Source: Candidatus Poriferihabitaceae bacterium (GTDB lineage Bacteria > Pseudomonadota > Gammaproteobacteria > Arenicellales > Poriferihabitantaceae). From it: a stretch of 64,000 nucleotides of DNA. The stretch spans positions 520,719 to 584,718 of the forward strand of contig CBDBJR010000002.1 in the NCBI GenBank assembly GCA_965206445.1, read 5' to 3'. Shown here one piece after another: positions 49,426-64,000 of the stretch. The notes under the pieces were generated by a model. The model was given only the letters and a program-made list of their open reading frames with translations. It did not search any database and was not told the origin of the DNA. Position numbers and translations under genes: made by a program. Numbering within the stretch: position 1 is the stretch's first letter; each line of letters begins with the position of its first letter.

Positions 49426-50364
49426 GTGATGCCGGTGAAAAAACCCAAACCCGATTGCACCCAGGCCGACACCCAGGCCGACACTCAGGCCAATGCGCGC
49501 CTCGTCAACGGCGAGGCGATAGCGGTGCTGAACAGCCTGCCGGACAACAGCATTGATTTGATTTTTGCCGACCCGCCGTACAATCTTTCCAATAACGGCT
49601 TTACGTGCCATGCCGGGCGGCGAGCCAGTGTCAATAAGGGCGGGTGGGACAAAAGCCGGGGAATAGAACAGGACTTTGAATTTCACTATGACTGGATTGC
49701 GGCGTGCCGCAGGGTTTTGAAAGACAGCGGGTCGTTGTGGATTTCGGGCACCTATCATTCGATTTATGCCTGCGGTTTTGCCTTGCAGCGCCAGGGCTGG
49801 CACGTGCTTAACGAAATCTGCTGGTACAAGCCGAATGCCGCTCCCAATCTGGCGTGCAGAATGTTTGCCGCCAGCCATGAGACCTTGCTGTGGGCGCGCA
49901 AAACAAAGCAGGCAAAGCACACATTCAATTATCAAGTGATGAAAAAAACGGCATGGGCGGGCGATTTCATTAAGAAGCCGGACAGGCAGATGCGCAGTGT
50001 GTGGGCGATCAATACGCCGCGGAAGGGAGAGAAAAAATACGGCAAACACCCGACCCAGAAACCCGAATTGCTGTTGCAGCGAATTATCCTGGCCTGCACA
50101 CATGAGAACGACATTGTGCTCGACCCGTTCTGCGGCAGTGCAACCACCGGCGTCGCGGCGCTGCGGGAAAACAGGAATTTTGTCGGCATTGATTTTGAAT
50201 TGGCGTATCTTGAGAAACTGGCCGTCAAGAGAATTCGTGATGTGCTACAGGCGCGCGCGCCGAGGCCCGAGGTTGCGCAAGCGCAGACGGGTAATCGGTT
50301 GGACGCCGTCGTGCCCAAAGCAGGATGGCCCGAAAGCAAACAGCAGTTTGTGCCGGTTTTTTAG
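49426..50364 (+). CDS. Site-specific DNA methyltransferase (beta-class N6A/N4C), apparently solitary
   Basis: DPPY motif (IFADPPYNL) precedes the AdoMet motif (VLDPFCGSATTGVAA), plus HPTQKP. No adjacent endonuclease candidate. Confidence 0.8.
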   Translation: MMPVKKPKPDCTQADTQADTQANARLVNGEAIAVLNSLPDNSIDLIFADPPYNLSNNGFTCHAGRRASVNKGGWDKSRGIEQDFEFHYDWIAACRRVLKDSGSLWISGTYHSIYACGFALQRQGWHVLNEICWYKPNAAPNLACRMFAASHETLLWARKTKQAKHTFNYQVMKKTAWAGDFIKKPDRQMRSVWAINTPRKGEKKYGKHPTQKPELLLQRIILACTHENDIVLDPFCGSATTGVAALRENRNFVGIDFELAYLEKLAVKRIRDVLQARAPRPEVAQAQTGNRLDAVVPKAGWPESKQQFVPVF

Positions 50365-50375
50365 CCCGGGTCGGC

Positions 50376-50540
50376 GTTGGCCAAATCAGGTAGCCATTGG
50401 CTAATATCAGGTATGCCAATGGCATATATCAGGTATGCCATTGGCATATATCAAGTATGCCATTGGCATACATCAAGTATGCTATTGGCTAATATCAGGT
50501 AAGCCATTGGCCTATAGTAACCGTTGGCTAATATCAATCA
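50376..50540. repeat. ~21-22-bp tandem repeat, ~7 copies (atatcaggtatgccattggcat)
   Basis: Read directly. Each unit contains an imperfect palindrome (T)GCCAWTGGC(A). It sits between the convergent MTase and MFS genes. Confidence 0.9.
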
Positions 50541-50576
50541 GCAAACAAAACGCCGGTCAAAATCCATAACGGATGC

Positions 50577-51755
50577 TCACCGCAGCCGCGCCGGAATGTA
50601 GCGACAAAACCCGGTGGCGGTGAACATCCATAGCGCTGCCGTCGCAAACACCATCGGCAGCGCAAAGTAGTGCAGCAGTACGGCAAACAGCCCCGGCGTG
50701 AGTATCTGCCCGGTATCGCGGTAGGTCACGAATATGGCCGACATGGCGGCCTGTTCATGCGCGCGGACTACGCGGAAAAACAGCACGTTGCCGACCCCGT
50801 CCAGCATCGTGGCGCCCAGCGCCGACATAACCAGCAGCACCGATGCCGTCAACGGCATCGCGGCCAGTCCGTAAACGCACAGGCTGAACAGGCCGGTCGT
50901 GGCATACCCGAGGGCCAGCACTTTGCGCACGCCGTAACGCCGCGCAACCCACCCCCACAGCGGCACCGAAAAAGTCCAGGCGGTGCCAATCGATACCAGC
51001 GCCGCGCCGGTCAGCTCACCCAGCCCCGAAGCGGTGGCATAAATCGGCGTATAGATCACGAACATGGTCCACCAGCAGGAGCGCGCCATGGTCAGGCTGT
51101 AAGCCAGCACCAGCCGCGGCTGCTTGAAATACCGCGCCAGGTGATTGAGCGGATTGACGCCGGCAGAGGTCGGGGCGCGAAATGGCAGGTGCCGCAGCCC
51201 GAGTCGATGAAAGCACCCCAGCGACACCAGCGTGCACAGCGCACAGAGGACAAAGGGCAGCGCGTGTGCCACGTTGCGTTCGAGGTACACCCCGAGAAAA
51301 GGGCCGATGGTCAGCGCCACTACGGTAAACACGATCCGCAGCGGCTCAAACCCGGTCAACTCATTGCGCGGAATTTTGGTCAGCACCAGCAGGGACAGCA
51401 CCACTTCCGCCGAGGCGATGGAAAACGCGTGGCAGAACAGGCCGATAGAAAAAATGGTCACCTGATCCAGCGACATCAGCGCCGCCGATGCGATCATGGC
51501 CGCGCAGGAGAACAGGAAGGCGCGGTAAACCCCGACCAGTTTGATCACCAGCGGCTGCACCAGAGCCGCGATGATGCCGCCGACCGCGACGATGAACAGC
51601 AGCGCACTGGCATCTCGCGGGCTGCCCAGCAATTCCAGCGCCTGCAGCGGGATGATCGAGAGCATCATCCCGCGCGGCAGGGCTTGCAGCAGGAAAAAAA
51701 ACGCCAGCCCCGCGTATTTGGAATAAAAAGCGAATCGAGGCAGGATAATCGGCAC
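50577..51755 (-). CDS. MFS transporter
   Basis: 392 aa, ~12 TM helices. Confidence 0.8.
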   Translation of the reverse strand: MPIILPRFAFYSKYAGLAFFFLLQALPRGMMLSIIPLQALELLGSPRDASALLFIVAVGGIIAALVQPLVIKLVGVYRAFLFSCAAMIASAALMSLDQVTIFSIGLFCHAFSIASAEVVLSLLVLTKIPRNELTGFEPLRIVFTVVALTIGPFLGVYLERNVAHALPFVLCALCTLVSLGCFHRLGLRHLPFRAPTSAGVNPLNHLARYFKQPRLVLAYSLTMARSCWWTMFVIYTPIYATASGLGELTGAALVSIGTAWTFSVPLWGWVARRYGVRKVLALGYATTGLFSLCVYGLAAMPLTASVLLVMSALGATMLDGVGNVLFFRVVRAHEQAAMSAIFVTYRDTGQILTPGLFAVLLHYFALPMVFATAALWMFTATGFCRYIPARLR

Positions 51756-60155: not shown

Positions 60156-60541
60156 GGCTTGATGGCGGTGGTAGCGTTGATACGGCGGACGCTGATGCTC
60201 GGCCCCTGCTATCGATCTGCTCGGATTTCAGGTGCGCCGCAATCAGTCGACCGCCTTGTTTTTTGGCAATCGGAACCTCGCCCAACGGTGTCGAAAACCG
60301 AGCTGTGCGCAACGGCGGTGCCGTGAGTTTGCCAGAAGTGCAGGGTTTGCATTCGTCATTGAGCATGAGCGTTAATTGACCAACGATACCTGATCCGGGC
60401 GACTCGGTAAACCCTTTTTATCCGGCAGCTGATGTGCTGGATTTACATGGCTTCTCCTCCTGGGTTCAGGAATGACCTCAAGCGCCCGCCCTACGGTACC
60501 CTAAGTGTATTCCAGCATAATCTACTGCGGTCAATATTTAT

Positions 60542-60570
60542 TTGCTAATCTCGTTCCTATTGGCGATAAT
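60542..60570 (+). promoter_or_regulatory. Candidate sigma70 promoter of the ParB/SNF2 island
   Basis: -35 TTGCTA (60542-60547), 17-nt spacer, -10 GATAAT (60565-60570). It lies ~105 nt upstream of ATG 60677. Confidence 0.3.
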
Positions 60571-60676
60571 AAAAGCAGTGCTGAAATTCAGGTAGCTGAT
60601 TGGGTTTTTCACCTAATCTGTATTATGATCTGGACCAAGCGTTATTCATCATTTGATACATGTTTTCGGAGGGAAA

Positions 60677-61717
60677 ATGGACGAAAATCACACGATGTTG
60701 GGTGTCGAAAAGATAGATTTTGACACTGAAAATCCAAGAATAAAAATGGCTTTGGAGAAGTATGGCGAACAATTGAATGCAGATCGCATTCATTTCGCAT
60801 TGCGTTCGGCTACTGAAAACGGAGCAAGAGGCACTTCTTCATACAATGGGCTTAAAGATTCCATCCTTGCCAGCGGTCGTATAGTAACTCCAATCACTGT
60901 CGTAAAGAAAGACGATAAGTATGTCTGTATTGATGGAAATACCAGGCTTGCTATCTACAAACAGTTTATTAGAGAAAAAACCTTAGGGGATTGGTCGGAG
61001 ATCAAAGCGATAGTCTTGAACAATGCCAGCCCACGCGATATAGAGACAATTCGTGTTTCCGCTCATCTCGTTGGCTCCAGGCAATGGCCTGCCTATGAGA
61101 AAGCGAGATATCTTCATCATCTCCGCAACCAGCAGTTGATGGACTATGGTGAAATGATCGCATTATGTGGTGGCAATAGAGTCGACATAGAACGGCAGAT
61201 TGACGCTTACCATGACATGAATGAATATTATCGTGATGTGGTTGATGACTCGGCGTTTAGGATGGAACGGTATAGCGGTTTTGTTGAGCTCCAAAAACCA
61301 CAGATCAAGGAAGCCATATTCGAAGTCGGTTTAGACCTGAAAGATTTTGGGGAATGGATTCGTGATGGCAAAATATATCGACTGGACACTGTAAGGCAGT
61401 TGCCCAGAGTTCTCCGGGATGACGAAGCAAGGAATACATTTCTTAATGGTGGTCCTCGGTCTATAGAGAGTGCTATCAGGTTGCTTGATCAACGGCGGTC
61501 GGAAAATGAACGTGACGGAACAATCGATAATATAACGCTAGAGAATGCATCTATATATCATCTGGCAAAGGTTCTTACACAGCGTATCAACAGTTTTCCT
61601 CTTGAAGAATTAGATGCTCTAAGGAAAAAGGAACGCGAAGATTCTGTAGAACAGATAGGTGTACTAGAGAATTTGTCTGCGCGTTTGCATATTTTGATCG
61701 AAAATGTCTCAGAGTGA
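60677..61717 (+). CDS. ParB/Sulfiredoxin-like N-terminal domain protein
   Basis: ENPR ... L.DSI...G.I.TPI.V......Y.CIDGNTRLA pattern of the ParB-like nuclease/NTPase domain. RBS ggaggg. AT-rich. Confidence 0.6.
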   Translation: MDENHTMLGVEKIDFDTENPRIKMALEKYGEQLNADRIHFALRSATENGARGTSSYNGLKDSILASGRIVTPITVVKKDDKYVCIDGNTRLAIYKQFIREKTLGDWSEIKAIVLNNASPRDIETIRVSAHLVGSRQWPAYEKARYLHHLRNQQLMDYGEMIALCGGNRVDIERQIDAYHDMNEYYRDVVDDSAFRMERYSGFVELQKPQIKEAIFEVGLDLKDFGEWIRDGKIYRLDTVRQLPRVLRDDEARNTFLNGGPRSIESAIRLLDQRRSENERDGTIDNITLENASIYHLAKVLTQRINSFPLEELDALRKKEREDSVEQIGVLENLSARLHILIENVSE

Positions 61718-62150
61718 TGTGCATAGAGACTTGGTATTTCAGGTCGCTAAAGAAATTGAATCACGTTATCCGCACATTTCTCTCATCACCGATGTGCAAC
61801 ATAGTCCAGGCGGCGATGTACCTCCAATAATTGATGGATTCCGTCCCGATGTGTATGCCATACAATCAATGGGTCATCCTTTGATTATCATTGCAGAAGC
61901 AAAGACCGACAATGATCTTGATAATCAACATGCCGATGACCAATTATCTGCTTTCATCAGTTATCTTGAACGAAGGGAGAATGGAGCTTTCATCTTGTCT
62001 GTAACTGGTCGTAGAGCCGACCATGCAAAGACTGTACTGCGATTTTTGAATCGTAGTATCAATGTGAAAGGCACAATACTGTCTGTATTTGATGGTTGTG
62101 ATCTCTGGTTCTTGGACTCAATTTCGGGTGTCAAATGGCATTTAAGCTAA
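61704..62150 (+). CDS. PD-(D/E)xK restriction-endonuclease-fold protein
   Basis: 148 aa with GFRPDVYA ... LIIIAEAKT, i.e. a PD...ExK core. It overlaps both neighbouring genes. Confidence 0.5.
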   Translation: MSQSDVHRDLVFQVAKEIESRYPHISLITDVQHSPGGDVPPIIDGFRPDVYAIQSMGHPLIIIAEAKTDNDLDNQHADDQLSAFISYLERRENGAFILSVTGRRADHAKTVLRFLNRSINVKGTILSVFDGCDLWFLDSISGVKWHLS

Positions 62151-63613
62151 GAAAGCCACCTGTTCTGGTTTCCAAACATGAGGCTTACCCGTATCAGCTT
62201 GATGCTGTGCGGGCAGTACAGTCGTTACCTTACGCTGCAATATTCCATGAGCAAGGGCTAGGTAAAACAAAGATCGCAGCCGATCTAATGCTGCTTTGGC
62301 TGGATGAAGATGTAGTTGACACGGTGTTTGTCGTTGTAAAAAAGACCTTGGTTCAAAACTGGGTGGATGAACTGGCATCACACTCCTATGTTACACCTAG
62401 AGTTCTATCTGCTAATCGACGGGGAAACAGCGTTGCGCTAAATTCACCTGTGCTGATTTACGTAATGAATTATGAGGTTATATCAACAAATTTTGATCTC
62501 ATACGTGAGTTTTTGACCACGTGCCGAGTAGCGGCTTTCCTTGACGAAAGCCAAAAGATTAAAAATCCTGACTCACAGCTTTCACGCTGTTTCCATTCTT
62601 TAGCAAGCGGATTCACACGACGCATCATTATGACTGGAACTCCTGTAGCTAATCGACCTTACGATATCTGGTCTCAGATTAGGTTTCTTGACAATGGAGA
62701 CACATTTGGTGATTCGTTCTCTGAATTCAAAGACTCACTTGATCTTCCTCCTGATTTTACCAATACTTCAGACTATGGGTTGCGACTAGCTGATGTTATG
62801 GATAGGATTAAAAACTTTTCCATACGTGAAACCAAGAATTCGGTGAGCCTTGAGCTTCCGAATAAAACCATCCTGACTCATTTAGTCGAGCTTGCCCCTC
62901 GGCAGTCTGCTATTTACACTTCATATCGGGACGAGATGGCTTATGAATTAAAAAACGACAAGCAACATATTATTGACGACGCAGAAGATATTTTAAAGCG
63001 TTTATTACGTCTTGTACAGTGTGCTTCCAATCCTGCTCTCGTGGACCGACTCTATGACGAGCTCCCCGGCAAATATCCCAAGCTGGTTGAGTTGCTGGAA
63101 AGAATTGATATTCAATCATACAAGGCAATTATATGGACTGGATTTGTGAGCAACGTCGAATGGTTAAGCCAAATGCTGGATCAATACGCGCCACAAAAGA
63201 TTCATGGGCACATGCCTGTTTTTAGCCGAAACGAGTCAATCAGAAGATTTAAAGAAGATGATGGCTGTCGAATTTTACTGGCTACACCCGGAGCCGCGAA
63301 GGAAGGATTGACTTTGACAGTTGCGAATCATGCAATATTTTATGATCGTGGATTCAGTCTTGATGACTATATTCAAGCGCAAGACAGAATTCACAGAATT
63401 TCACAAACTGATGAGTGTTTCGTACACAATATTATTGCTAAAGGCACCATTGATGAATGGATAGATATACTACTTAATGCCAAGTATCAGGCGGCACAGT
63501 TGATGCAAGGTGATATATCACGCGAAACGTTTGATGCAACTTTTAGGTGTGACTTGTCCGAAGCATTGACACAAATACTTTCACCCACAGAACCTATCCA
63601 GATAATGCACTAA
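62135..63613 (+). CDS. SNF2-family helicase/ATPase
   Basis: Motif I EQGLGKTK, motif II FLDESQKIKN, TGTPVANR, and helicase C motifs (LLATPGAAKEGLTLT, QAQDRIHRISQ). Confidence 0.8.
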   Translation: MAFKLRKPPVLVSKHEAYPYQLDAVRAVQSLPYAAIFHEQGLGKTKIAADLMLLWLDEDVVDTVFVVVKKTLVQNWVDELASHSYVTPRVLSANRRGNSVALNSPVLIYVMNYEVISTNFDLIREFLTTCRVAAFLDESQKIKNPDSQLSRCFHSLASGFTRRIIMTGTPVANRPYDIWSQIRFLDNGDTFGDSFSEFKDSLDLPPDFTNTSDYGLRLADVMDRIKNFSIRETKNSVSLELPNKTILTHLVELAPRQSAIYTSYRDEMAYELKNDKQHIIDDAEDILKRLLRLVQCASNPALVDRLYDELPGKYPKLVELLERIDIQSYKAIIWTGFVSNVEWLSQMLDQYAPQKIHGHMPVFSRNESIRRFKEDDGCRILLATPGAAKEGLTLTVANHAIFYDRGFSLDDYIQAQDRIHRISQTDECFVHNIIAKGTIDEWIDILLNAKYQAAQLMQGDISRETFDATFRCDLSEALTQILSPTEPIQIMH

Positions 63614-63624
63614 GGAGAAATCAT

Positions 63625-64000
63625 ATGAAACAGATGACAATTTTAGGTGAAACTATCGGTATTAGTGATGATTACATCAACATACATGAACTCAAGTTTC
63701 TGAAAGATAACCCCAGGGTTTATGCCTGTACGCATGGAGAACCGGGATTCGAAGATTTACCCGATGAAGAACAACAGGATATCATATATAAAAAGCTTTT
63801 AGATGAGCCCAGTGTGAAAAATTTACTGCCAGAGATAAAACGACATGGCGGCCTTATGGAGTCCATATTAATCCGTCTTGACACAATGGAGGTTATTGAA
63901 GGCAATTCGCGTTTGGCTGTTTATCTCAAGCTGCATAGTGACCCCAAAGAAAACGATGAGTGGAGCCTTATCCCCTGCGACATAGCAAGTAGTCTGACAG
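63625..64000 (+). CDS. Second ParB-like domain protein (partial; runs off the window)
   Basis: RBS aaggag, then ATG 63625. DNPRV ... ESILIRLDTMEVIEGNSRLAVY parallels the 60677 product. The frame is open to the window end. Confidence 0.55.
   Translation, partial: MKQMTILGETIGISDDYINIHELKFLKDNPRVYACTHGEPGFEDLPDEEQQDIIYKKLLDEPSVKNLLPEIKRHGGLMESILIRLDTMEVIEGNSRLAVYLKLHSDPKENDEWSLIPCDIASSLT

What the first reader, a model, noticed from the sequence alone, without database searches (positions are those of the whole stretch)
60500..64000. AT-rich island encoding ParB-like / PD-(D/E)xK / SNF2 helicase / ParB-like: candidate uncharacterised defence or DNA-modification module
- At about 60.5 kb the composition drops sharply. 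Four tightly packed or overlapping same-strand genes follow.
- The genes are a ParB/Srx-like domain protein (DGNTRLA), a 148-aa PD...ExK nuclease-fold protein, an SNF2 ATPase with all core motifs, and a second, paralogous ParB-like protein (EGNSRLA) that runs off the window.
- ParB-like proteins combined with SNF2 helicases are reminiscent of components of the dpd (7-deazaguanine) and other modification-dependent systems. This gene order, with two ParB paralogues flanking a nuclease-helicase core, matches no named system I know.
- The module is truncated by the window end, so further genes are likely.
Basis: partly seen in the sequence, partly recalled or inferred. Interest (0 to 1): 0.7.

Follow-up and report, generated by a model that had tools for sequence, protein, structure and literature searches.

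The report
ParB–nuclease–SNF2 block of radical-SAM cassette
The AT-rich island is real and is the first four genes of a horizontally spreading, uncharacterised six-to-seven-gene cassette whose unseen downstream genes are a B12-type radical-SAM enzyme and a GHKL ATPase, most likely a new kind of DNA-modification-based defence system.

Summary
Observation confirmed. GC falls from 0.62 to 0.34 at base 60,500. Four translationally coupled + strand genes follow: ParB-like 1 (60677-61717), a 148-aa PD-(D/E)xK protein, an intact SNF2 ATPase, and a paralogous ParB-like 2 that is cut by the window end.

In 77 related loci from GTDB genomes the block is strictly co-conserved. 61 of 64 nuclease-SNF2 loci also carry a radical-SAM gene; the other three contigs end first. 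52 carry a GHKL ATPase as well. The radical-SAM protein has an invariant CX3CX2C motif, a B12-binding-like N-domain, and TsrM as its best fold match.

On plasmids of cultured Alphaproteobacteria the core is DndB-rSAM-GHKL. There the four-gene block is one of several interchangeable effector modules; others are PIN_8+GHKL and DndB-HEPN. The core occurs without the block, but the block never occurs without the core.

No PADLOC, NCBIfam or Pfam system model describes the cassette, and neither does any paper in the searchable library.

Best reading (inferred, untested): a restriction-modification-like system in which a radical-SAM enzyme writes the self mark and the ParB-nuclease-SNF2-ParB block attacks unmarked DNA.

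The window-type lineage is found almost only in MAGs of sponge-symbiont lineages, across at least 12 phyla.

The parts
60501..60676 (+). AT-rich leader and left edge of the island. It holds a weak sigma-70-like site (60542-60570) and a GGAGG ribosome-binding site before the ATG.
   Evidence: GC steps from 0.62 to 0.34 at 60500. The promoter-like match is no more frequent than in shuffled sequence. The leader is not conserved outside close relatives. No tRNA or integrase lies at the edge.
60677..61717 (+). ParB-like protein 1 (346 aa). It has an N-terminal ParB/Srx-type domain (DNPR...DGNTRLA...AYEKA), then an HTH region and a helical C-terminus.
   Evidence: Identical to database protein P0001. 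The family is 46-79% identical across phyla. A merged N-domain profile has H. pylori ParB 4umk as top PDB hit, aligned over the GxxRLxA box (E 0.012), and 8 of 15 weak hits are ParB-superfamily entries. Pfam ParB_N matches 8 of 39 members. PHROGs ParB-like partition families match at 1.7e-5.
61704..62150 (+). 148-aa stand-alone PD-(D/E)xK (restriction-endonuclease-fold) protein, overlapping ParB1 by 14 nt.
   Evidence: H7, D30, P48-D49, E65-x-K67-T68, Q80, D130 and D133 are invariant. The AlphaFold model has pLDDT 92.7 and pTM 0.89. Top Foldseek PDB hits are MspJI (E 2.3e-3, prob 0.99), PaqCI, NucS/EndoMS, SfsA, R.BspD6I, Mus81 and BamHI. No Pfam, NCBIfam or PADLOC family matches.
62135..63613 (+). 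SNF2-family ATPase/translocase (492 aa) made of the helicase core only, overlapping the nuclease gene by 16 nt.
   Evidence: Pfam SNF2-rel_dom 6.2e-28 and Helicase_C 1.4e-15, both above cut-off. Motifs I, II, III and VI are at least 95% conserved. PADLOC ZorD 6.4e-48 and DpdE 1.1e-34 match over the helicase part only. All NCBIfam system models score far below cut-off.
63625..64000 (+). 5' part (125 of about 335 codons) of ParB-like protein 2, a paralogue of ParB1 with the motif EGNSRLA, cut by the window end.
   Evidence: Translation. 72% identical to the L001 orthologue. Family-to-family hhalign probability 99.5%. A central HTH is detected in 7 of 38 members. PHROGs ParB-like partition family at 5.7e-9.

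Best explanation
The island is the upstream four-gene module (ParB1, PD-(D/E)xK nuclease, SNF2 translocase, ParB2) of a self-contained, horizontally transferred cassette of about 7.1 kb. In all close relatives the cassette continues with a B12-binding-domain radical-SAM enzyme and a GHKL (Hsp90/MORC-type) ATPase.

Proposed mechanism, by analogy with Dnd and Dpd:
- The (DndB or ParB2)-rSAM-GHKL core is a DNA-modification 'writer'. The ParB/DndB-type protein and the GHKL ATPase engage and hold DNA, and the radical-SAM enzyme installs an unusual mark, possibly a radical C-methylation.
- The ParB1-nuclease-SNF2-ParB2 module is the 'restriction' arm. ParB-type NTPase/DNA-binding subunits read DNA status or sequence and license an ATP-driven SNF2 translocase coupled to the small nuclease. 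Together these degrade DNA that lacks the mark (phage or plasmid DNA).

What is shown:
- gene content, order and co-conservation;
- domain identities and intact catalytic motifs;
- modular exchange of effector modules;
- the horizontal-transfer signature.

What is inferred:
- that the substrate is DNA;
- that the mark protects self DNA;
- the division of labour among the proteins;
- the chemistry.

Confidence by layer: four-gene block as part of the conserved six-to-seven-gene cassette, about 0.95. Conflict or defence role, about 0.75. The specific writer/eraser mechanism, about 0.4.
For: Co-conservation:
- In 77 GTDB loci anchored on ParB1, 52 have all six genes in the same order.
- 61 of 64 loci with the nuclease-SNF2 pair also have the rSAM. 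The other three contigs end 227-795 nt after SNF2.
- The closest relatives (75-79% ParB1 identity) have the same six genes.
- Anchoring on the rSAM instead gives the same picture. 7 of 11 IMG/VR contigs carry the block; in L092 the nuclease was not detected. Several alphaproteobacterial plasmids carry it too.

rSAM identity:
- C173-x3-C177-x2-C180 is invariant and the N-terminus is typical of B12-domain rSAMs.
- Foldseek best hit is TsrM (E 2.3e-5, probability 1.00, about 435 columns).
- Weak Pfam B12-binding, Pfam Radical_SAM and NCBIfam B12-rSAM hits.

GHKL identity:
- Bergerat motifs are invariant.
- HATPase_c_3 matches 29 of 33 members.
- HtpG N-domain at 1.2e-11.

Link to DNA modification:
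- In the plasmid lineage a bona fide DndB-family protein (PF14072, 1.8e-11, above cut-off) immediately precedes and overlaps the rSAM gene.

Modularity typical of modification/restriction systems:
- The four-gene block is collinear, inverted as a unit, or circularly permuted relative to the core.
- It is accompanied or replaced by PIN_8+GHKL and DndB-HEPN effectors.
- The core occurs without the block (pNL1, Agrobacterium S7/73, L078, L091). The block was never seen without the rSAM.

Mobility and defence-island context:
- The cassette has lower GC than its flanks in 42 of 43 loci, by 9.5 points on average.
- Flanks are not conserved.
- Neighbours include toxin-antitoxin genes, conjugation genes and serine recombinases.
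- About 10 loci hold decayed remnants.

The SNF2 protein is most similar to the helicase cores of the defence effectors ZorD and DpdE.
Against: - No experiment and no DNA-modification data exist. The rSAM substrate is unknown.
- The rSAM model is of modest confidence (pLDDT 64.8), and cobalamin binding is untested.
- The window lineage lacks DndB (no tblastn hit in the 77 loci). ParB2 shows no detectable similarity to DndB, so what targets the writer in this lineage is conjecture.
- ParB2 usually travels with the SNF2 block rather than with the rSAM. L025 is the only counter-example.
- Seven loci with room lack a detectable GHKL.
- No fusion of the nuclease to a helicase was found among the best 150 of 810 representatives.
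- The window itself ends before the rSAM and GHKL genes, so their presence here is inferred from relatives.
Confidence: 0.5

Rival explanations
1. A defence system that does not mark self DNA. The rSAM-GHKL pair would be an effector or sensor instead. It might make an antiviral small molecule or nucleotide analogue (as viperins do, and as proposed for Ophion), or it might damage invading DNA directly. The ParB-nuclease-SNF2 block would then act independently or as a second layer.
For: Radical-SAM enzymes already serve defence without self-marking: Ophion is rSAM+PHP+PRTase, and viperins do the same (my knowledge). The window lineage lacks DndB. The ParB/Srx fold binds nucleotides (CTP in ParB; established knowledge). 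A related rSAM family occurs in phages (phrog_9298, 4.5e-38).
Against: PADLOC, which includes viperin models, gives no hit for the rSAM. The architecture is class B-like (TsrM), not viperin-like. The gene is tightly and overlappingly coupled to a DndB-family gene in the plasmid lineage. The block-needs-core asymmetry is what a toxic restriction arm that needs a protective writer would produce.
Confidence: 0.2
2. A selfish module of mobile elements rather than host immunity. It would modify the element's or host's DNA to evade restriction, and it would use the nuclease-translocase arm against competing plasmids or ICEs, or as an addiction (post-segregational killing) device.
For: The cassette sits on conjugative plasmids (pNL1, pR132505), beside TraC/TraG/relaxase genes and serine recombinases (L079), and on IMG/VR contigs. 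The ParB N-domains resemble those fused to phage and plasmid methyltransferases (phrog_498). The ParB superfamily is implicated in conflict between plasmids (Maindola et al. 2014, cited in PMC10853773).
Against: Most of the 77 loci are chromosomal insertions between housekeeping genes, with no element genes nearby. The two roles are not mutually exclusive with defence, and the predicted biochemistry would be the same.
Confidence: 0.15
3. A DNA-repair or chromosome-maintenance module. The rSAM would be a lesion-reversing enzyme like spore photoproduct lyase, the GHKL would be MutL-like, and the SNF2 plus nuclease would process the lesion.
For: Radical-SAM DNA repair has a precedent in spore photoproduct lyase (my knowledge). 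The GHKL weakly matches a MutL model (3.3e-4). The nuclease model resembles NucS/EndoMS among others.
Against: The distribution is patchy and driven by horizontal transfer, with a GC deficit and frequent decay. The cassette associates with PIN, HEPN, toxin-antitoxin and DndB genes. No repair-family model reaches its cut-off.
Confidence: 0.05
4. A plasmid or prophage partition/replication module, with the ParB proteins acting as centromere-binding proteins.
For: Both paralogues have a ParB-like domain order (N-domain, HTH, helical C-terminus). They hit PHROGs 'ParB-like partition protein' families.
Against: The cassette has no ParA partner; all six genes were scanned. It lies in chromosomes between housekeeping genes. 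The partners are a nuclease, an SNF2 ATPase, an rSAM and a GHKL ATPase. The GxxR box is DGNTR/EGNSR, closer to the DGQHR/DGQQR type than to the partition-ParB GERRxRA (sequence).
Confidence: 0.03

Closest known systems
Dnd phosphorothioation system (DndABCDE with DndFGH and other restriction modules)
   Same: In the plasmid lineage a true DndB-family (DGQHR) protein precedes an Fe-S enzyme and an ATPase as a three-gene core. Variable nuclease/helicase effector modules are attached, and the core can occur alone. Both are defence islands spread by horizontal transfer.
   Different: There are no DndA, DndC, DndD or DndE homologues. The Fe-S enzyme is a radical-SAM TIM-barrel protein with a B12-like domain, not a PP-loop ATPase. 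The ATPase is GHKL, not SMC/ABC. The window lineage has no DndB at all.
Dpd 7-deazaguanine DNA modification/restriction island (DpdA-K)
   Same: A ParB/DGQHR-type protein partners a DNA-modifying enzyme, and an SNF2-type helicase sits in the restriction arm. PADLOC DpdE models hit the window SNF2 at 1e-34.
   Different: There is no DpdA transglycosylase, DpdC or preQ0 pathway. NCBIfam DpdE scores 39 bits against a cut-off of 500. The window SNF2 is a 492-aa core, against DpdE of more than 1000 aa.
ZorD of type I Zorya (SNF2 helicase fused to an Mrr-like nuclease)
   Same: It gives the best PADLOC hit (6.4e-48) over the helicase core. The pairing of an SNF2 motor with a PD-(D/E)xK nuclease is functionally equivalent.
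   Different: Here the nuclease is a separate 148-aa protein, never seen fused among the best 150 representatives listed. None of the six cassette proteins matched ZorA, ZorB or ZorC in PADLOC. NCBIfam ZorD scores 68 bits against a cut-off of 1500.
Class B (cobalamin-dependent) radical-SAM methyltransferases, e.g. TsrM
   Same: The downstream rSAM shares the Rossmann-like N-domain plus radical-SAM barrel architecture. TsrM is its only strong structural match (E 2e-5, probability 1.0). The CX3CX2C motif is invariant.
   Different: Sequence identity is about 15%. The Pfam B12-binding and Radical_SAM scores are below cut-off. The genomic context is DNA conflict, not natural-product or cofactor biosynthesis. 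I know of no class B enzyme that acts on DNA.
Prokaryotic MORC/paraMORC GHKL ATPases linked to restriction-modification systems (Iyer, Abhiman and Aravind 2008, my knowledge; PMC8011034 was listed but not read)
   Same: A HATPase_c_3-type GHKL ATPase is embedded in an operon with a helicase and a restriction-fold nuclease.
   Different: The 350 residues C-terminal to the GHKL domain match nothing. No S5/transducer domain was detected. The partner is a radical-SAM enzyme rather than a SAM-dependent methyltransferase.
Radical-SAM defence systems: prokaryotic viperins and Ophion (OpnABC)
   Same: They show that a radical-SAM enzyme can be an essential part of an anti-phage system.
   Different: The partners are different (PHP and PRTase in Ophion). 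The rSAM class is different, and PADLOC gives no hit.

Membership tests
ParB/Srx superfamily (ParB1, ParB2) | N-terminal ParB/Srx domain with the GxxR nucleotide-binding box | tested here: met
   (D/E)GN(T/S)R is invariant in both paralogues. The top PDB hit of the merged profile is ParB 4umk, aligned on this box (E 0.012), and 8 of 15 hits are ParB-superfamily entries. Pfam ParB_N matches 8 of 39 members, best 1.6e-4. PHROGs ParB-like families match at 5.7e-9 and 1.7e-5. The proteins are divergent, and single sequences fall below Pfam cut-offs.
Partition ParB (ParABS systems) | Cognate ParA ATPase gene and a parS centromere | tested here: not met
   No ParA-like protein is among the six cassette genes. 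The cassette lies between chromosomal housekeeping genes.
ParB/Srx superfamily | NTP (CTP/ATP) binding or hydrolysis, or nuclease activity | not testable with these tools
   This needs biochemistry.
PD-(D/E)xK nuclease superfamily (148-aa protein) | Core alpha-beta-beta-beta-alpha-beta fold with D...(D/E)xK catalytic residues | tested here: met
   D49, E65 and K67 are invariant. The model has pLDDT 92.7. Foldseek hits are mostly restriction-endonuclease-fold proteins, with modest TM scores of 0.4-0.5.
SNF2 family ATPases | SNF2-rel_dom plus Helicase_C above cut-off, with motifs I-VI | tested here: met
   98.2 and 57.9 bits against cut-offs of 24.9 and 23.5. Motifs are conserved.
Type I Zorya (ZorABCD) | ZorD equivalog score and the presence of ZorA/B/C | tested here: not met
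   NCBIfam ZorD scores 68.2 bits against a cut-off of 1500. No cassette protein hits ZorA-C in PADLOC.
Dpd system | DpdA transglycosylase, DpdB and DpdC, plus DpdE equivalog score | tested here: not met
   DpdE scores 39.2 bits against a cut-off of 500. No TGT-like gene is in the cassette.
DISARM | DrmD equivalog score together with DrmA/B and a methylase | tested here: not met
   DrmD scores 38.4 and 32.4 bits against cut-offs of 950 and 610. The other DISARM components are absent.
Dnd system | DndB (PF14072) together with DndA/C/D/E | tested here: not met
   DndB is present only in the plasmid/IMG-VR lineage and absent from the 77 window-type loci. DndA, DndC, DndD and DndE are absent everywhere examined.
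Radical-SAM superfamily (downstream gene, seen only in relatives) | CX3CX2C [4Fe-4S] motif in a partial TIM barrel | tested here: met
   C173, C177 and C180 are invariant. Foldseek hits TsrM and LipA. Pfam Radical_SAM scores only 19.6 bits against a cut-off of 29.5.
Class B cobalamin-dependent radical-SAM methyltransferases | N-terminal cobalamin-binding Rossmann domain that binds B12, and methyl-transfer chemistry | tested here: inconclusive
   The domain architecture and the TsrM match support it. Pfam B12-binding is at E 0.015, below cut-off. Cofactor binding and chemistry are not testable here.
GHKL ATPases (MORC/Hsp90/MutL type; downstream gene, seen only in relatives) | Bergerat-fold motifs (ExxxNxxD, DxGxG, GxxGxG) | tested here: met
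   E39, N43, D46, D74, G76, G78, G103, G106 and G108 are invariant. HATPase_c_3 matches 29 of 33 members, best 1.6e-12. HtpG matches at 1.2e-11.
MORC/MutL subfamily | S5-fold transducer domain after the GHKL domain | tested here: inconclusive
   The profile of the C-terminal 350 residues finds nothing in the PDB or Pfam.
This cassette in the window itself | rSAM and GHKL genes present downstream of ParB2 | not testable with these tools
   The window ends at 64000. Exact-protein look-ups of the source contig failed. The inference rests on 61 of 64 relatives and on the two closest relatives.

The most novel reading that the evidence does not exclude
The cassette encodes the first restriction-modification-like immune system whose self mark is written by a cobalamin-type radical-SAM enzyme. 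That would mean a chemically new DNA modification, for example C-methylation of a base, sugar or backbone position that SAM-dependent SN2 methyltransferases cannot reach. A ParB/DndB-type NTPase and a GHKL clamp would deliver the enzyme, and paralogous ParB subunits on an SNF2-nuclease motor would read the mark. The system would have spread across at least 12 bacterial phyla within sponge holobionts and onto alphaproteobacterial plasmids.
Probability: 0.3. Interest if true: 0.92.

Novelty: new variant of a known kind. Interest (0 to 1): 0.78.

Why it matters
If the inference holds, the cassette adds a new enzymatic route, radical-SAM and possibly B12-dependent chemistry, to the short list of ways bacteria mark their own DNA. 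The existing routes are methylation, phosphorothioation and 7-deazaguanine. It would also predict an undiscovered DNA modification.

The system is immediately testable. Cultured, sequenced strains carry complete versions: Rhizobium leguminosarum WSM1325 pR132505, Novosphingobium aromaticivorans DSM 12444 pNL1 and Roseomonas mucosa AD3.

It would also give a mechanistic handle on three things:
- ParB-fold proteins working as readers or loaders outside chromosome partition.
- GHKL ATPases in bacterial immunity.
- The heavy defence load and cross-phylum gene sharing of sponge symbionts.

Even under the rival readings, it is a large, extremely conserved, unannotated conflict system that the current defence-system catalogues I searched do not contain.

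Tried and rejected
- Exact-protein look-ups to extend the contig failed for the SNF2 protein and for P0001. Cluster records carry no organism names.
- The island DNA has no match in E. coli genomes and only short helicase matches in plasmids.
- No tRNA, integrase or conserved leader marks the island edge. The promoter-like site is not above chance.
- Single-family PDB sequence searches were uninformative for ParB1 and the 148-aa protein, and nearly so for the rSAM.
- The GHKL C-terminal region matches nothing.
- ParB2 against the Rhizobium DndB protein: no similarity. I therefore dropped the idea that ParB2 is a cryptic DndB.
- Rosetta-stone test: among the best 150 of 810 representatives of the nuclease family, none is fused to a helicase.
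- IMG/VR scan with the ParB1 patterns found nothing, probably because the patterns were too specific.
- I first split the cassette as [ParB1-nuc-SNF2] + [ParB2-rSAM-GHKL] on the basis of L025. The plasmid and IMG/VR loci show that the usual units are [ParB1-nuc-SNF2-ParB2] + [(DndB)-rSAM-GHKL], so I revised the split.
- Nine literature searches found no paper describing the gene combination. The Dnd reappraisal (PMC10853773) and Ophion (bioRxiv 10.1101/2025.09.30.679545) concern different systems.
- I considered a MiaB/RimO-type methylthiotransferase identity for the rSAM, since these were its best sequence hits. I rejected it because no auxiliary-cluster cysteine triad is conserved in the N-domain.

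Full report
**1. The observation**

The compositional break is real and sharp.
- 500-nt windows fall from 0.57-0.66 GC to 0.39-0.46.
- In 50-nt windows the step is 0.62 (60451-60500) to 0.34 (60501-60550).
- Overall GC is 0.578 before 60.4 kb and 0.422 after 60.65 kb.

Four + strand genes follow:
- ParB-like 1 at 60677-61717. The ATG start matches database protein P0001 and the family consensus.
- A 148-aa protein at 61704-62150, overlapping ParB1 by 14 nt.
- An SNF2 ATPase at 62135-63613, overlapping the 148-aa gene by 16 nt.
- ParB-like 2 from 63625, 11 nt after the SNF2 stop, cut by the window end.

No tRNA or integrase marks the edge. The left neighbours are ordinary PhyH and CMD-family genes.

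**2. The four proteins**

SNF2:
- Pfam SNF2-rel_dom 6.2e-28 and Helicase_C 1.4e-15, both above cut-off.
- Motifs GLGKT, DESQ, TGTP and QAQDRIHRISQ are at least 95% conserved in 58 family members.
- PADLOC's best hits are the helicase cores of ZorD (6.4e-48) and DpdE (1.1e-34).
- Every NCBIfam system model is far below its cut-off: ZorD 68 against 1500, DpdE 39 against 500, DrmD 38 against 950.

The 148-aa protein:
- It matches no library family.
- Its family keeps H7, D30, P48-D49, E65-x-K67-T68, Q80, D130 and D133 invariant.
- A confident model (pLDDT 92.7, pTM 0.89) has as best PDB neighbours MspJI, PaqCI, NucS/EndoMS, SfsA, R.BspD6I, Mus81 and BamHI. These are restriction-endonuclease-fold proteins, although the scores are modest.

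The two ParB-like proteins:
- They are full-length paralogues (hhalign probability 99.5%, E 3e-22, 304 columns, about 20% identity).
- Both have an N-domain (DNPR...(D/E)GN(T/S)RLA...AYEKA), a central HTH and a helical C-terminus.
- ParB/Srx membership is supported by weak but concordant evidence. The merged N-domain profile puts H. pylori ParB first, aligned on the GxxRLxA box. Pfam ParB_N matches 8 of 39 members. PHROGs ParB-like partition families match at 5.7e-9 and 1.7e-5. NCBI names relatives 'ParB N-terminal domain-containing protein'.

**3. What lies beyond the window**

Exact look-ups of the source contig failed, so I used relatives.
- A profile scan of one genome per GTDB species returned 77 loci.
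- ORF clustering and tblastn show a six-gene cassette of about 7.1 kb: ParB1, nuclease, SNF2, ParB2, a protein of about 548 aa and a protein of about 504 aa.
- 52 of the 77 loci have all six genes.
- Of 64 loci with the nuclease-SNF2 pair, 61 also have the fifth gene. The other three contigs end 227-795 nt after SNF2.
- The two closest relatives (75-79% ParB1 identity) have the same six genes. In L097 the cassette lies cleanly between UbiA/DUF2970 and COX2-COX1, with no recombinase.

The fifth gene is a radical-SAM enzyme.
- SRGC173xRxC177xFC180G is invariant, and the N-terminus (LIEPxYxNKYPPLGLMKLAAY) is typical of B12-binding-domain radical-SAM proteins.
- Pfam and NCBIfam give only sub-threshold Radical_SAM, B12-binding, RimO and B12-rSAM hits.
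- A modest model (pLDDT 64.8) has the cobalamin-dependent methyltransferase TsrM as its only strong structural match (E 2.3e-5, probability 1.00, about 435 columns).

The sixth gene is a GHKL ATPase.
- All Bergerat motifs are invariant.
- HATPase_c_3 matches 29 of 33 members.
- The HtpG N-domain matches at 1.2e-11.
- The C-terminal 350 residues match nothing.

**4. Architecture of the wider family**

The radical-SAM family is much larger and more conserved than the ParB1 family: more than 7,366 hits (capped) against 674.

Anchoring on the rSAM in annotated plasmids of cultured Alphaproteobacteria (12 full-length hits at 55-57% identity) shows a constant core, DndB-rSAM-GHKL. The DndB gene is a genuine PF14072 member and overlaps the rSAM start.

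The window's four-gene block behaves as a single unit attached to that core:
- collinear in Rhizobium pR132505;
- inverted as a block in Roseomonas p2-AD3, Bradyrhizobium p187_1 and the IMG/VR contigs L083 and L087;
- circularly permuted in L060 and L079.

In L025 alone, ParB2 travels with the rSAM.

Other effector modules accompany or replace the block. PIN_8+GHKL and a DndB-HEPN fusion are found on pNL1 and Agrobacterium S7/73, which lack the SNF2 block. A 633-aa GHKL plus a PP_RS20740-like pair is found in L078 and L079.

So the core occurs without the block, but the block was never seen without the core.

**5. Mobility and ecology**

- The cassette has lower GC than its flanks in 42 of 43 complete loci, by 9.5 points on average, with partial amelioration (r = 0.70).
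- Flanks are unrelated except among close relatives.
- Neighbours include toxin-antitoxin genes, Fic, AbiEii-like genes, conjugation genes and serine recombinases.
- About ten loci hold solitary ParB1 remnants, and several are interrupted.
- All 77 GTDB loci are MAGs. Their taxa are Nitrospirales, Binatia, Latescibacterota, Acidobacteriota, Poribacteria, Arenicellales/Poriferihabitaceae including Spongiihabitans, Thermodesulfobacteriota, Nitrospinales, Gemmatimonadota, Chloroflexi, Bdellovibrionota, Rhodothermales, and Alpha- and Gammaproteobacteria.
- That set reproduces the signature described as typical of high-microbial-abundance sponges (PMC13087572). That these MAGs actually come from sponges is my inference from names and record style, not a verified fact.
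- The DndB-containing sister lineage is on plasmids from soil, plant and human isolates, so the system as a whole is not confined to sponges.

**6. Mechanism**

The best-supported reading is a restriction-modification-like system.
- The (DndB/ParB)-rSAM-GHKL core writes a mark on DNA.
- The ParB1-nuclease-SNF2-ParB2 block is a translocating nuclease that attacks unmarked DNA.

The support is contextual:
- the DndB linkage;
- the Dnd/Dpd-like organisation of a core with exchangeable effectors;
- the asymmetry that the block needs the core;
- the ZorD/DpdE-like motor;
- the intact catalytic motifs in every component;
- the defence-island behaviour.

Nothing shows that DNA is the substrate, what the chemistry is, or which ParB does what. 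My confidence is about 0.95 for the cassette assignment, about 0.75 for a conflict or defence role, and about 0.4 for the writer/eraser mechanism.

The rivals, in decreasing order of likelihood, are:
- a defence system that does not mark self DNA, with the rSAM acting as effector, as in viperins or Ophion;
- a selfish anti-restriction or addiction module of mobile elements;
- DNA repair;
- plasmid partition.

**7. Novelty**

PADLOC v2, NCBIfam r20 and Pfam contain no model for ParB1, ParB2, the nuclease or the rSAM as system components. Nine full-text searches found no description of the combination. The library is incomplete, so prior description elsewhere cannot be excluded.

I classify the cassette as a new variant of a known kind (multigene modification/restriction-type defence islands). 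There is a substantial chance that the modification chemistry itself is categorically new.

Noticed in passing
window 49426-50516: A 312-aa ORF at 49426-50364 (+) looks like a beta-class N6A/N4C DNA methyltransferase (IFADPPYNL ... FCGSATTG). It is followed at once by a 22-bp tandem repeat of about 6.2 copies (unit TTGGCAAATATCAGGTATGCCA, with inverted TGGCA/TGCCA ends) at 50377-50516.
   Followed up: partly
window 50500-51750: A strong A-over-T skew (0.31-0.35) is explained by a 392-aa multi-pass membrane protein gene on the minus strand (50577-51755). This is ordinary.
   Followed up: yes
L001-L077 (record titles): The window-type cassette was found only in MAGs whose taxa match the typical sponge-symbiont community, including Poribacteria, Poriferihabitaceae and Spongiihabitans. 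It spans at least 12 phyla at 46-71% ParB1 identity, which suggests cross-phylum transfer within sponge holobionts. Sample origin was not verifiable with the tools.
   Followed up: partly
L080 12218-15734; L081 4090-7643; L094 4221-7665; L095 1815-5137; L007, L055, L058: A gene pair of a PIN_8-domain protein (about 640 aa) and a second HATPase_c_3 GHKL ATPase (about 530 aa) recurs next to the rSAM core. It may be a separate effector module or an independent system.
   Followed up: partly
L081 12183-14492 (-); L095 5499-7859; L076: A large DndB-domain protein fused to a Swt1-like HEPN domain (about 770 aa) lies adjacent to the DndB-rSAM-GHKL core.
   Followed up: no
L078 13246-16176; L079 17252-20130 (-): Another recurrent pair, a 623-633-aa HATPase_c_3 protein plus a 332-338-aa protein with a faint PP_RS20740 (PF28273) signal, sits beside rSAM-GHKL. 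In L078 it does so in the absence of the SNF2 block.
   Followed up: no
L097 10001-17099: The cassette is inserted as a bare six-gene unit inside a cytochrome c oxidase gene neighbourhood (UbiA/DUF2970 | cassette | COX2-COX1-CtaG), with no recombinase. How it moves is unexplained.
   Followed up: no
L006, L028, L031, L034, L036, L043, L054, L059, L062/L063, L065; L048; L032, L050, L056, L068, L071: There are solitary ParB1 genes or truncated remnants, a frameshifted cassette (L048), and cassettes interrupted by insertions of 1.4-3 kb. This indicates frequent decay and turnover.
   Followed up: partly
L027, L044, L061, L066, L068, L072, L074: These divergent cassettes have the four-gene block and the rSAM but no detectable GHKL homologue, even though at least 8 kb of sequence continues past SNF2. 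The GHKL may be replaced or dispensable there.
   Followed up: no
rSAM family; phages: The rSAM is unusually conserved (72-92% identity among the top 120 hits) and its family is at least 10 times larger than the ParB1 family. A shorter phage family (phrog_9298, E 4.5e-38; e.g. Marinitoga camini virus 1, Bacteroides LoVEphage, Clostridium phage phiCT453B) is related to it. Its role in phages is unknown.
   Followed up: no
L012, L020, L036, L038, L062, L063, L072 (cluster c5): An AAA_14 + DUF4143 ATPase gene (about 383 aa) recurs near the cassette in seven loci, in varying position and orientation.
   Followed up: no
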